From Octopus vulgaris (taxonomy: Eukaryota): a stretch of 64,000 bases of DNA. Positions within the stretch are counted from its first letter, which is position 1; every line of letters begins with the position of its first letter. The notes below the pieces were generated by a model. The model was not told the origin of the DNA, did no database searches, and saw only the letters and a program-made list of their open reading frames with translations. Shown piece after piece: positions 7,273 to 59,595 of this stretch. The DNA is taken from the NCBI GenBank assembly GCA_951406725.2, contig OX597824.1, forward strand, positions 27,900,001 through 27,964,000, read 5' to 3'. The translations under genes were made by a program, and so were the position numbers.

Positions 7273-7312
7273 CCTTTTACTCGGAGTTTCACGTTCCCGT
7301 TCGTCGGACAGG
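7273..7312 (-). ncRNA. Type I hammerhead motif (U4C core), family F2, in a centre-deleted inverted pair
   Basis: Minus strand cctgt-CCGACGA-acg ggaa cgt-GAAAC-tc c ga-GTA-aaagg; a plus-strand half copy (tgaaactccaagtaacagg) follows; homologous to 59434-59595. Confidence 0.7.
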
Positions 7313-8454
7313 AACCTGAAACTCCAAGTAACAGGTTTTGTTGAATTTCTGCTGCTTTTAAATAAGCTATATATATATATATATATATATATATATATAT
7401 ATATATATATATATATATATTCTCGCTATCATGTTAAAATGTCGTATGTCCAAATTTGGGCAAATGCGTTTTTTATCTTTCAATATATATTTTTGCTCGC
7501 TATAGGTGGTTCTTTTGATCAAACTAGCGTATCTCCATCTGGTTCAGATGCCAAGATATCAAAAACTGTCATAGAGTAATGCAACAGTTTTGGTATGGAA
7601 TGGTAAAACTCTTTTTTCGCTTCCTGAGAATACAACGTTTTGGACTCATGACACTTTTGCGTAAAAACATCGATATATATATATATATATATATATATAT
7701 ATATATATATATATATATATATATATATATATATATACACATATATATATACATACATACATATGTATATCTTTACATATTCCAACATATATACATATAT
7801 TCATACAAATTTTAATGTATGTGTGCATGTATGTATATATGTATATGTATACATATGTGTGTGTATTCTGATATACCTGTATACACACATATGCACGTAT
7901 AGTTCATACATTTTCTGATGTAGAAATTATTGATTAATTGGTACAATACCAATATAATTTATGTTTTCTTACGGCAGCCTATTAAAGAAGATTTTAATTA
8001 TATTTATCTTATTTAGTCTAAGCATAGATTAGATTTCAACTAGGTGAAATGGTTTCGAGGTAAACTCTCCATCAACACGAATTGAGTTAATTTATAACAT
8101 TAGAAATTTAATGACGAAGAGAACCTGTCAGCTGGCGATTAAAATGCGCAGGTGATTAAAATTGCCTAGATTCTTAACTGTTTATCATTTTAATATAGTT
8201 GAAAGACAATATTATTACGCAGTTCTACAATCGAAATAAGAAGTATTTTGAGCATTTTTATCATTGTGAATATCGGCAAACGTTCTTGTTTATCGCATGT
8301 CAATATATCTATGTAATTATTCTACTTATTGTGGTTGCTGTTGCTTAGCCTCCAAGTGTATACTGATGGAGCATATTATGAATCGCAGGTTTTAAATAAA
8401 TGTAAATTTATTATATTAAATTATCGATAATATTTGACATTATTTATTTTTGAG

Positions 8455-8850
8455 TTGTGGGACAGTCCATTACATTGATCCCAGTACGTAACTGGTACTT
8501 AATTTATCGACCCCGAGAGGATAAAAGACAAAGTCGACGTCGGCGGAGTTTGAACTCAGAACGTAAAGACAGACGAAACACCGCTATGCATTTCGTGCGG
8601 CGTGCTAACGTTTCTTATTTCATATACTGCCTACAAGGGGCTACACATAGAGGGGACAAACAAGGACAGACAAACGGATTAAGTCGATTACGTCGACCCA
8701 GTGCGTAACTGGTGCGTATTTAATCGACCCCGAAAGGATGAAAGGCAAAGTAAACCTCGGCGGAATTTGAACTCAGAACGTAACGGTAGACGAAATATCG
8801 CTAAGCATTTCGCCCGGTGTGCTAACGTTTCTGCCAACTTGTCGCCTTAA
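8455..8850 (-). mobile_element. tRNA-derived SINE-N, two adjacent units
   Basis: Minus strand aaggcg..ttggcagaaacgttagcac...gagttcaaattccgccgagg...gcctttcatcctttcggggtcga; many copies in the window. Confidence 0.85.
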
Positions 8851-8949
8851 AATATGTACTAAGTTGCTTTCGGGGATATTCCTGCACACACACGTACATA
8901 CACAAACACATAGTTATGTTGGCATATATATGAATGCATGTATATGAAG

Positions 8950-9241
8950 GGAGGGGCGTGACCTGGTATGTAGAACATTCACGATCGTTAGAACGTGGCC
9001 CCGATCCCCGGATCGAGCGACGCTTTGTGTTCTTGAGCTAAACGCTTCATTTTAAATTGTTCTAGTCCACTCTGCTGTAACTGGGTTAACCCTGCAACAG
9101 AATAGCCCTTCCGATCAGGGAGGGGGATTTGCCAGCTCGCTTACCTGCCGGGGTGCTATCACTCGAAAGATGACACTATGCAAGGGCATTTTGACCAGCG
9201 ATGTATAACAACATGTAATATTATCTGGTTAAACACGTGAC
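8950..9241 (+). mobile_element. Degenerate SINE, head A with tail Z
   Basis: Head-A body (tgtgttcttgagc...agtccactc) followed by gctcgctta...tgaccagcgatgt...cacgtga as in 61317-61622. Confidence 0.65.
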
Positions 9242-9886
9242 AGCGAGATTTGTATGCACATCGAATCTGTCAGCTCGTAGCCAAATATGGACATCGCTGA
9301 CAATTTATTTCCTCCTAGCAGTGTCCGTGCTGAAATTTAAATTCGGTAACAGCGTGAAGAACACTGTTAAGACTCTCACCCAAATATCTAACAGAGACAT
9401 TCTTTCACCTGAAAACGTAGGTTAAATTCTGTAGTATTTTAAACGATTTTTTCCATTTTTCATTAATGCAGACATTTAGGTAATTTATTTCTCATAAAAT
9501 ATAATAATATGAATTATTTACATGTTTTTAAGTTACGAAACAATTTATAGTGATATTTCAATTTTCTTATTGTTAAATGTTATTTCACCAAACTACCTTG
9601 TCATTTATGATTATATATATATATATGTGTGTGTGTGTGTGTGTGTGTGTGTGTTTGTGTGTGTCTGTGTGTGTGTGTGTGTGTGTGTGTGTGTTAAATA
9701 AAGATAACAAGGCCAAGGCAATTTGATATTCCTAGACCATTTATAAATAGAAACTTTTATTTTCTATTTTTCTTTTATAATTTCTGCATTTTATCTAATT
9801 TCTTGTATATTTCTCCCTCTCCAGAATAAAAACTTCTATAAAAAATGAACTCTACTAATTCCTTCGAATAAATTTTCTTTAAACTC

Positions 9887-56980: not shown

Positions 56981-57700
56981 CGGCGCAGGCTGTGTAGTAA
57001 GACGCTTGCTTCCCAACAACATGGGTCAGTCAACTTGGATTAGTGCCTTTTACTACAGCCTCGGGCCAACCAAAGCCTTCTGAGTGGATTTGGTAGGTGG
57101 AAACTAAAAGAAGTCAGTCGTATATCTATCTATCTATCTATCTATCTATCTATCTATCTATCTATCTATCTATCTATCTATCTATCTATCTATCTATGCA
57201 TCTCATCTCTCTATCTCTCTCACTATATATATATATATATATATATATATATATATATATATATATATATATATATATATAAAGGGAGAGTTTACGAAAA
57301 AAACAAAAGACGAAGACGGGTGGTGTACAAAACAAACAGATGTATTAGTATAACGCTCAGGAATAGAAAAAGTCTTTTACGTTTCGAGCCTACGCTCTTC
57401 TACAGAAAGGGACACAGAAAAAACAAGGAGAGAAAAAGATGTGTGTAGTGACTAACGATCTATCATGGCTGATAGTATACATATATATGCTCTCACACAC
57501 ACATGTACATATGTATATATATGTGTGTGTATGTGTGTGCTTGTGTGTGTGTCTGTGTTTGCATCCCACCATCGCTTGGCAACCGGTGTTTCTGTGTTTA
57601 CGTCCCTCTAACTTAGCAGTTCAACAAGGACACCAATAGCACACTTAATTAGCTTACAAAGAACAAGTCTGGGATCGATTTCGTGGAGTAAAATTCCTCT
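56981..57700 (+). mobile_element. Degenerate SINE-M with a hammerhead element nested in its microsatellite
   Basis: Head at 56981-57120, tail at 57545-57700. Confidence 0.7.
57282..57470 (-). mobile_element. Hammerhead-bearing element family F1 (motif 57374-57409)
   Basis: Minus strand cttt-CTGTAGA-a-gagc gtag gctc-GAAAC-GTA-aaag. Confidence 0.8.
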
Positions 57701-58190
57701 CGTTTGGAACTGCAATGCTTATAAGCACTCACGTTTATAGCGCTAGCAGGAAACAATCGATCAAGACCATCGCCAGGACTACCAGATCATGTGATTTCTG
57801 CCTTACTTGGCCTTTTCAGTGGTAGACACCCGTGGCTAAATGTACCAGCAACTTCACCGTCAGCGATCTATATAGAATTCCACTGTCTATTCAGGCATTA
57901 GTGTCGCAAATAGCCTGTGAGCTCATTGAAACATAATAGTGACAGAAGCATTACCATTCCAATTTATTTTATTAAACGCCTTGATTATAATCTCATTCCC
58001 AACTTTTATTGCCTTCTGAAATCTGCTATTTTGAATATGCACGTATATAACGAACAGTTTTCGTATTAATGCCAAACCTTCTTTCCAACTATCTGTCTTG
58101 TAATGAAAGAAACATTATAAGGAAAGGAAAATAGCTGCAATAAAGCATGGTTACTCTCTGTAAATAGCTTTCATTAACTGTTGCATAAAG

Positions 58191-58505
58191 AGGCGTAATG
58201 GCCCAGTGGTTAGGGCAGCGGACTCACGGTCGCAGATCGCGGTTTCGATTCCCAGACCGAGCGTTGTGTTTGTTTATTGAGCGAAAACACCTAAAGCTCC
58301 ACGAGGCTCCGGCAGGGGATGTTGGAGACCACTGTTGTACTCTTTCGCCACAACTTTCTCTCACTCTTTCTTCGTGTTTCTTGTGCAACGCTACGACGGA
58401 CTGGCGTCCCGTTCAGCTGAGGGAACACATACACCATAGAAACCGGGAAACTTGGCCCATGAGGCTGGCTAGGCTTGAAAAGGGCGCATAAATAAAAAAT
58501 AAATA
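58191..58505 (+). mobile_element. SINE, head B with tail Y
   Basis: Head as in 39019 and 61317; tail gactggcgtcccg...gaaaccgggaaa...ggcgcat as in 63460. Confidence 0.85.
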
Positions 58506-59433
58506 ACTGTTGGATAAGCAGTTGTCGTTGATGATGTGTGTATTTGAGAAGGCGTGAATATAATTGTCCAAAAGCTTTCTAATGCTGTCTCAATACAAAC
58601 TTAGTCCAATGGATAAAAGCATACACAAACTTTTTTACCTACTAACAAACATTTCTATGTATTGCTTTGTGTCTCTGAAAGTAGAAAACGAAATTGTCGC
58701 TTACTCGATAACTCCTTCAAACGCAGTATCAAGTGTAAACTATTTGAAACTTTCTGAAGTGTATCCAGAACAACGTTATTGTAAAAACCCCGCGGTCTTC
58801 TGAGGTCACTCAGAGGTATGATGAAGAAGTAACGATATTCTGTGATGCATGCTATTTTCCCTACAGATATTATTATTAATAATTTTTGGCAATTGCTTAG
58901 CTTAAAGAAGAGCAGCTAAATTTTATATACAATTTGTATAATATTATTTACGACACATTTGATACGCATTTGATTCAATCTCTATGTGTAACGTACAATC
59001 GCAGATATACACTTCCATATACAAGCACTCAGGCGTACATAACCGTATAAACATTTATATACGCACACACATACACATACATATGGATATATGTATCTAT
59101 GTATGTTAATCTAATCGGTTACGCTATACAGTTGTAGAGAACGAATTTATTATTCTTAAACAAGAATATTATTGAGAGTCACTTACATGTTTCGGCTTCT
59201 TAAGCCGTCTTTGTTGTTTAAGAATAATAAATGTATGTATGACTATATCTACCAATCTATATCTATCTATCTATCTATCTATCTATCTATCTATCTATCT
59301 ATCTATCTATCTATCTATCTATCTATCTATCTCTCTATCTATCTATCTATCTATATATCTACCTATCTATATGTATGTTACCTGTCTGTCTGTATATATA
59401 TATATATATATATATATATATATATACACACAC

Positions 59434-59595
59434 AAAAAAACTGTTACTCGGAGTTTCACGCTCGCGATCGTCAGATGATTTTGTTTCTAAACAAAACTGT
59501 CCGACGAACGGGAACGTGAAACTCCGAGTAACAGGTTTTGTGATATTTTTGCTGCTTTTCAATAAAGCATATTACTCTACCTCAAATTATCGAAT
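59434..59595. mobile_element. Inverted double-hammerhead element family F2 in a TA tract
   Basis: Palindrome 59434-59540; plus motif 59497-59534 ctgt-CCGACGA-acg ggaa cgt-GAAAC-tc c ga-GTA-acag; minus motif 59441-59478 with CTGACGA core. Confidence 0.8.

What the first reader, a model, noticed from the sequence alone, without database searches (positions are those of the whole stretch)
7273..59595. Family F2: head-to-head double hammerhead in one ~105-bp palindrome
At 59434-59540 both strands encode a hammerhead, so sense and antisense transcripts could each carry one, but the full hairpin would sequester both. The copy at 7273-7350 has the same architecture with the centre deleted, so the inversion is a family property. 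It resembles the inverted pLTR junction of Penelope elements and is a potential dsRNA/siRNA source.
Basis: partly seen in the sequence, partly recalled or inferred. Interest (0 to 1): 0.7.

Follow-up and report, generated by a model that had tools for sequence, protein, structure and literature searches.

The report
Head-to-head Penelope retroelement ends with hammerheads
The palindrome is two short end-pieces of a Penelope-like jumping gene joined back to back, a published layout seen in about half of the sampled copies of this family and likely made when two DNA copies are started on one RNA; only one of its two hammerhead motifs still fits the ribozyme fold, so it is probably ordinary insertion debris rather than a working double ribozyme.

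Summary
The palindrome at 59433-59540 is real (arms 45/54 identical, z -10.7). It is a 5'-truncated, head-to-head insertion of the hammerhead-bearing end (pLTR) of a Hydra-type Penelope-like element (PLE). Related copies run into an RT + GIY-YIG ORF, and a young sister subfamily keeps a 727-codon open frame. Only the + arm fits a hammerhead descriptor, with a U4C core; the - arm has a broken stem I. Inversion is common but not universal: 43 of 88 sampled loci. The 7273 copy is better read as an independent insertion of another subfamily than as a centre deletion. Opposite-strand twin hammerheads, head-to-head pLTRs and the one-sided tail are all in print, and this scan met such insertions in other genomes. 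What the copies add is junction statistics: nearly every pair has one arm ending at +66 and one at +137/138, both arms share a haplotype, neither is consistently a copy of the other, and short arms pile up at -19 to -13, not at the cleavage site. This favours two cDNAs primed on one uncleaved RNA and then end-joined. No RNA evidence for siRNA or editing was obtained.

The parts
59433..59486 (-). Inverted arm of the PLE pLTR, element positions -12 to +41 (C3 of the hammerhead = 0); outer end eroded into (CA/TA)n; about 83% identical to family copies
   Evidence: its central 20-mer is unique in the genome at <=1 mismatch
59441..59478 (-). Decayed hammerhead motif: canonical core (C3 at 59474), helix III intact, stem I broken by two mismatches, GNRA loop lost
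   Evidence: fails descriptor
59485..59486 (.). Head-to-head junction, 2-nt overlap (arms start at -12 and -16), inside the family's junction hot spot
   Evidence: hot spot
59485..59582 (+). Sense arm of the pLTR, positions -16 to +81; runs past the short end (+66) into the tail, rest of tail lost; 96 of 98 identical to copy L002
59497..59534 (+). Minimal type I hammerhead motif: 4-bp inner stem I, U4C core, 3-bp stem II with GNRA loop, palindromic helix III; predicted cut after 59530
   Evidence: activity untested
59394..59432 (.). (TA)n/(CA)n microsatellite flank, the family's usual target
59598..59666 (.). (TA)n microsatellite flank
7269..7311 (-). Second insertion, inverted arm, positions -4 to +38; hammerhead motif with one stem I mismatch; outer end lost (no detectable tail, p 0.53 against shuffles)
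7312..7366 (+). Second insertion, sense arm from about +11 (or +7 with a 3-of-4 overlap) to the short end +66, then (TA)n; lacks the 5' core; L018-type subfamily
   Evidence: alignment score 104 to L018 against 72 to L002

Best explanation
The palindrome is a short, dead, head-to-head insertion of the hammerhead-bearing end of a Hydra-type Penelope-like retroelement, likely formed when the element's enzyme started two cDNAs on one uncleaved RNA and the two ends were then joined. Shown: family identity, the two fixed 3' ends (+66 and +137/138), one of each per pair, shared haplotype, junction positions, (TA)n flanks. Inferred: the enzyme nicks both strands of a (TA)n target and primes reverse transcription at two internal RNA sites; the cDNA from +138 either stops near +66 or displaces the other, so both arms come to cover the hammerhead; the ends are joined through 0-4 nt of microhomology or a few added bases; short copies run off an RNA 5' end near -17 to -19. 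The two hammerheads are passengers, now decaying.
For: Family: L027's inverted arm and L005 hold RT/EN coding fragments. L091/L092 hold a 727-codon frame between pLTRs 84% identical to F2, and L091 is itself a kb-scale head-to-head unit. The model's top fold matches are telomerase RTs (E 1.4e-10; Z 15.9, rmsd 8.8, 352 aligned). The C-terminal region aligns to the Pfam GIY-YIG stretch of homologue P0002. Hydra motifs are present. Architecture: one short plus one long arm in 42 of 43 old pairs and 39 of 40 young pairs. Arms differ at 7 of 176 polymorphic sites against 30% under permutation, minimum 17% in 2000. The short-ended arm reaches further 5' in 18 pairs, the long in 17, equal in 5; in 3 pairs the arms do not overlap at all; 5 of 40 junctions are loop-less palindromes. 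Pairs are short-short 30, long-long 8, mixed 2 (Fisher p 1e-6). 29 of 60 short-pair starts lie at -19 to -13, the next at -39; 1 of 60 lies near the cut site +30, and 1 of 30 in a tail-anchored sample. In vitro, a PLE protein nicks and extends both strands, starts at two internal sites that bound the tail, is predicted to be a dimer, and uses uncleaved RNA (PMC11167929).
Against: All mechanism steps are read from finished genomic copies. 17 of 57 young loci stayed unpaired (3 short solo, 14 long with the partner unresolved) and could hide mixed pairs. 45 of 88 old loci show no partner within 400 bp. Shared haplotype could also come from two RNAs of one locus or from later conversion between arms. 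The microhomology control (0.62 expected, 1.71 seen in 24 junctions) is not weighted for the hot spot. The window's - arm is far more diverged (9 of 54) than its + arm (2 of 98 against L002), which a single insertion date does not explain. No RNA 5' end was measured. Direct Pfam and PDB sequence searches of the ORF found nothing relevant.
Confidence: 0.72

Rival explanations
1. Same element, but the inversion arises by self-priming (fold-back) on an antisense template, with the endonuclease trimming the two ends, as proposed by Arkhipova and colleagues.
For: Published proposal for head-to-head palindromic junctions (PMC3846280). It predicts identical haplotypes in both arms, as seen.
Against: Fold-back needs a loop and several paired bases. 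5 of 40 junctions are loop-less palindromes, 17 of 40 have 0-1 nt of overlap, and several carry added bases. Arm order is 18 to 17, and 3 pairs share no sequence. Trimming at either end in either order would have to be added.
Confidence: 0.17
2. Short head-to-head units propagate as their own non-autonomous elements, which would explain repeated junctions.
For: Some junctions recur: -14/-14 five times among 40, +14/+3 in L109, L121 and L122.
Against: Most junctions are unique. The -14/-14 junction occurs on different haplotypes (L197, L234). The +14/+3 junction occurs with the tail on either arm.
Confidence: 0.06
3. The locus is a selected double ribozyme or siRNA source.
For: A strong hairpin is predicted if transcribed. 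PLE-derived small RNAs exist in a rotifer (PMC3846280).
Against: One arm's stem I is broken and the other has the U4C change, reported to lower activity considerably in vitro (PMC3088659). Only 2 of 42 pairs keep two intact motifs. Metazoan PLE minimal hammerheads showed no cleavage as monomers and need same-strand dimers (PMC4209133). Both outer ends are eroded.
Confidence: 0.03
4. The 7273 copy is a full palindrome that later lost its centre.
For: Its arms meet at about -4 and +7 to +11 with a short imperfect overlap.
Against: Such junctions form de novo throughout -19 to +40 in 98-100% identical young copies. It belongs to another subfamily and has the short end on the + arm, unlike the 59434 copy.
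Confidence: 0.1

Closest known systems
Inverted 5'-truncated pLTR units of endonuclease-positive Penelope-like elements (Craig et al. 2021, PMC8557442 Fig. 2; Arkhipova et al. 2013, PMC3846280)
   Same: Head-to-head inverted copy at the 5' end, tail on one side only, microsatellite target, palindromic junctions.
   Different: The tail is about 72 nt here against 30-40 bp described; most copies are only about 100-230 bp with both arms starting just upstream of the hammerhead.
Hydra clade of PLEs (Craig et al. 2021; includes Hydra-1_Obim from an octopus)
   Same: RWK and DKT motifs, no Cys pair inside GIY-YIG, CxxC-E and N-CxH motifs, (TA)n target, hammerhead. Two Hydra sequences in that paper's supplement have the same stem I, helix III and cut triplet as F2.
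   Different: The repeat unit is 3354 bp rather than under 3 kb; the young copy has Phe at the second Cys of the linker; the hammerhead listed for Hydra-1_Obim is a different one, so F2 is another family.
Minimal hammerheads of metazoan PLEs (Cervera and De la Pena 2014, PMC4209133)
   Same: Type I, short helix I, small palindromic helix III; dual motifs on opposite strands 100-700 bp apart were already reported in truncated PLEs.
   Different: Stem II is only 2-3 bp with a GNRA loop, no G10.1-C11.1 pair, U4C is the commonest core in the old subfamily, and the two motifs are about 25 bp apart.
LINE-1 twin priming (recalled, no call read on it)
   Same: Two target nicks prime two cDNAs, giving a 5' inversion joined by microhomology.
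   Different: Here both starts are fixed sites and the arms usually duplicate the same sequence.
Animal non-LTR retrozymes (bioRxiv 10.64898/2026.07.22.740005)
   Same: Short PLE-related units with type I hammerheads.
   Different: Retrozymes are head-to-tail arrays; only 4 of 87 F2 loci had a same-direction neighbour.

Membership tests
EN+ Penelope-like element | Single ORF with telomerase-like RT | tested here: met
   727-codon frame in the sister subfamily, fragments beside F2 ends; model pLDDT 86; telomerases rank first. Tested on relatives, as the window copies hold no ORF.
EN+ Penelope-like element | C-terminal GIY-YIG endonuclease | tested here: met
   Indirect: no direct Pfam hit; the region aligns (E 1e-12) to the P0002 stretch that passes the GIY-YIG cut-off, 26.2 against 22.6 bits; Y, Y-G, R, H, E invariant in 33 of 33.
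EN+ Penelope-like element | pLTRs in partial tandem with adjacent inverted truncated copy and one-sided tail | tested here: met
   L091 structure; 42 of 43 and 39 of 40 pairs with one short and one long end.
EN+ Penelope-like element | Hammerhead motif in the pLTR | tested here: met
   181 descriptor matches of this family in 939 kb of fetched loci, which were selected for it.
Hydra clade | RWK, DKT, no CCHH in the endonuclease, CxxC and CxH around E and N, (TA)n target | tested here: met
   All present in L091; criteria, counts, flanks.
Hydra clade | CxCX5C linker | tested here: inconclusive
   32 of 33 aligned proteins have it; the young copy has Phe at the second Cys.
Hydra clade | Placement in the clade on an RT tree | not tested
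   No reference PLE sequences were held as session sequences; no tree built.
Active hammerhead ribozyme, + arm | Core and three helices | tested here: inconclusive
   Passes the descriptor but with U4C and a marginal helix III; not the minimum-energy fold even alone.
Active hammerhead ribozyme, - arm | Stem I closing the cleavage site | tested here: not met
   Two mismatches among the four inner pairs.
Active hammerhead ribozyme | Self-cleavage | not testable with these tools
   Needs an in vitro assay.
Non-LTR retrozyme | Head-to-tail array of hammerhead units | tested here: not met
   Window copies are single inverted units; 4 of 87 loci have a same-direction neighbour.
Hairpin siRNA locus | Transcript, small RNA or editing over the hairpin | not testable with these tools
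   No run on record as RNA and no raw reads offered.

The most novel reading that the evidence does not exclude
These copies are a genomic record that Penelope-like elements integrate by obligatory twin priming: two fixed start sites (+66, +138) on one uncleaved RNA feed the two sides of a double nick, which at once explains the one-sided tail, the head-to-head inversion and thousands of short palindromes that run off an RNA start about 17-19 nt upstream of the hammerhead core.
Probability: 0.5. Interest if true: 0.55.

Novelty: new member of a known kind. Interest (0 to 1): 0.27.

Why it matters
As a locus it matters little: it is one of thousands of decaying PLE ends. The family is useful because a young, abundant subfamily (4111 exact 23-mer hits) with open ORFs gives near base-exact junctions. 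These separate the two candidate mechanisms for PLE inverted repeats and tails, which Craig et al. call unresolved, and give sharp predictions for the existing in vitro system. Many such palindromes could feed dsRNA editing or small-RNA pathways if transcribed, but that is untested.

Tried and rejected
Rfam: no match at gathering score; only generic hairpin families below cut-off. Pfam and PDB sequence searches of the ORF or its alignment: nothing relevant. Expression: no RNA holder listed for window 58500-60500. Four runs guessed to be RNA, contigs only, were laid on the young element L091:5400-9700, not on the window locus; contigs cover most of it and a few cross head-to-head joints, but depth cannot rank parts and strand, starts and editing cannot be read. 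A loose end at -12 in three runs looked like splicing into the pLTR; it is a genomic neighbour, locus L290: rejected. A genome-wide count of inverted pairs by one gapped pattern was not obtained, so the inverted fraction rests on contig C1 samples. One search used references that included microsatellite flanks and over-counted partners (67 of 88): discarded and redone. The hammerhead regex was faulty and was replaced. L122 was first dropped as a duplicate and reinstated when its flanks proved different. The idea that the window's - arm belongs to a separate subfamily found no second copy. A separate fold of the C-terminal domain had not finished and was not used. Paper searches for a twin-priming account of PLEs: 'Penelope-like' + 'twin priming' gave 3 listings whose titles concern other topics, not read; 'Penelope' + 'head-to-head' + 'retrotransposition' + 'second strand' gave 0. 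The library lacks most subscription papers, so absence from print is not shown.
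Full report
Observation. The sequence at 59433-59540 is an imperfect inverted repeat between microsatellites. Its arms are 45 of 54 identical and it folds at -58.6 kcal/mol, z -10.7 against 200 dinucleotide shuffles. I number the element from hammerhead position C3 = 0 (window 59501 on +). The + arm covers -16 to +81 and holds a minimal type I motif with a 4-bp inner stem I, a U4C core, a 3-bp stem II with a GNRA loop and a palindromic helix III. The - arm covers -12 to +41; its core is canonical but two of the four inner stem I pairs are mismatched, and it fails the descriptor. At 7269-7366 the arms cover -4 to +38 and about +11 to +66; neither passes. Rfam reports no hammerhead.

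Family. The own genome (2.8 Gb, 227 contigs; an octopus-like animal by my inference only) has 3390 exact hits to a 19-mer of the motif and 0 to the reversed control, 7641 to a tail 23-mer and 4111 to a 23-mer of a young sister subfamily. Longer copies extend into a 3' UTR and coding sequence: L027 carries an inverted arm with RT-thumb and endonuclease fragments, and L005 an RT fragment. L091 and L092 hold a 727-codon open frame between pLTRs 84% identical to F2 with a canonical core, and L091 is a head-to-head unit at kilobase scale. The ORF has 1043 relatives at E<=1e-10 among 7999 scored. Direct Pfam and PDB sequence searches gave nothing relevant. The predicted model (pLDDT 86) matches telomerase RTs first, and the C-terminal region aligns to a homologue's GIY-YIG stretch. 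RWK, DKT, no Cys pair inside GIY-YIG, CxxC-E, N-CxH and (TA)n targets fit the Hydra clade; the linker's second Cys is replaced in this copy, and no tree was built. Craig's supplement lists an octopus Hydra family with a different hammerhead, and two other Hydra sequences whose stem I, helix III and cut triplet equal F2's.

How often inverted. From the first 100 hits (contig C1) I examined 90 loci; one further hit was not included. I dropped L114 and L115 as same-flank duplicates of L112, and at first L122, which I reinstated. 43 of 88 have an inverted partner within 400 bp of the 5' end; 42 of these 43 have one arm ending near +66 and one running into the tail (mostly to about +138). 19 have both arms spanning the whole motif, yet only 2 of 42 tested pairs have two descriptor-intact motifs. 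So the window's layout is common, and double intact motifs are rare. The 7273 copy matches the L018-type subfamily better (score 104 against 72) and has its short end on the + arm, the reverse of the 59434 copy, so a separate insertion is the simpler reading.

Junctions in the young subfamily. From the first 100 hits I analysed 57 loci; I left out 8 loci that split long units over two windows, 4 repeat views, 1 duplicate and 6 unfetched hits. 40 gave a paired junction and 17 did not (3 short solo, 14 long unresolved). 39 of 40 are short+long. 30 are short-short, 8 long-long and 2 mixed (p 1e-6). The short-ended arm reaches further 5' in 18, the long-ended in 17, equal in 5; in L215, L262 and L274 the long arm starts at +81 to +87 and shares nothing with its partner. 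Five junctions are loop-less palindromes at a self-complementary 4-mer (-14 to -11). Overlap averages 1.71 nt in 24 short junctions without added bases, against 0.62 for random joins (unweighted); 6 have added bases. 29 of 60 short-pair starts fall at -19 to -13, and the next starts are at -39 and -40. One lies near the predicted cut site (+30), and 1 of 30 in a sample anchored on the tail, where none fell between -17 and -133. Arms disagree at 7 of 176 polymorphic sites, 2 of them from a mis-paired locus, against a permuted mean of 30%. An initiator-like pyrimidine-A motif sits at about -17 in all 11 copies printed (consensus recalled, weak in AT-rich DNA).

Mechanism. I infer that two cDNAs are primed on the two nicked strands of a (TA)n target, at +66 and +138 of one uncleaved RNA, and are end-joined. 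If the +138 cDNA stops near +66 the result is a plain inversion; if it displaces the other, both arms carry the hammerhead and the palindrome results. Short pairs would be run-offs from an RNA 5' end near -17 to -19, long pairs primed at the downstream pLTR. This agrees with in vitro work on an anole PLE: both strands nicked and extended, two internal starts bounding the tail, predicted dimer, ribozyme cleavage not needed. The published alternative, self-priming on an antisense template, fits the shared haplotype but fits loop-less and non-overlapping junctions poorly. Against my reading: everything comes from finished copies, 17 young loci are unresolved, about half of old loci show no partner, and the window's - arm is unexpectedly more diverged than its + arm.

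Known work and what I saw of it. PMC8557442: passages, the Hydra section and supplement look-ups; it describes the inverted truncated copy and the one-sided tail. PMC4209133: first two of four parts; it reports dual minimal hammerheads on opposite strands 100-700 bp apart and no cleavage by a monomer. PMC11167929: first two of four parts, the whole main text. PMC3846280, PMC3088659, PMC6962438: passages. The retrozyme preprint: first of five parts; its supplements were not seen. LINE-1 twin priming is recalled. Earlier notes of this scan report similar units in other genomes; a sequence look-up found none.

Verdict. A real feature and a new member of a known kind. The double ribozyme and siRNA readings are unsupported or untested. 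The interest lies in the junction statistics, which make an open question of PLE integration testable.

Noticed in passing
window 14885-15010 (+), core at 14913: End of a second hammerhead-bearing repeat family, with a long stem II, a 5-bp stem I and the same palindromic helix III, flanked by (TA)n. It passes the descriptor; 6 matches of this type in fetched loci.
   Followed up: partly
window 32354-32530, core at 32483 (+): A third hammerhead motif (U4C core, 7-bp stem II), directly preceded by an inverted repeat whose arms lie at about 32364-32418 and 32428-32481; probably another PLE end.
   Followed up: no
window 32739-32924 and 33289-33474: 186-nt inverted repeat, 95% complementary, 364 nt apart, between (TA)n runs; the right arm follows another (TA)n-flanked segment.
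   Followed up: no
window 59454-59474 (-): The decayed arm's three stem II changes give a CGC/GCG stem that resembles the stem II ends of a Hydra sequence in Craig's supplement, yet the stretch is unique in this genome. Chance decay or an older template; unexplained.
   Followed up: partly
G000, one search list: Many young copies have open frames over 700 codons among the 150 scored, and several are head-to-head pairs 1-4 kb apart, which suggests recent activity.
   Followed up: partly
L290 (G000:C12:81788859-81791875): A short arm of the young subfamily sits directly at the end of the second hammerhead family; the junction also appears in contigs of three runs.
   Followed up: yes
fetched loci: At least eight further hammerhead types with different stems and mostly palindromic helix III occur in the flanks, implying many PLE or retrozyme families in this genome.
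   Followed up: no
window 6900-6937 (+): A short GC-rich hairpin ending in CTAGT before (TA)n, like a Helitron 3' end (recalled).
   Followed up: no
window 746-1147 (+), 13463-13864 (-), 51374-52000 (-): Open stretches that read like Tc1/mariner transposase fragments (recalled).
   Followed up: no
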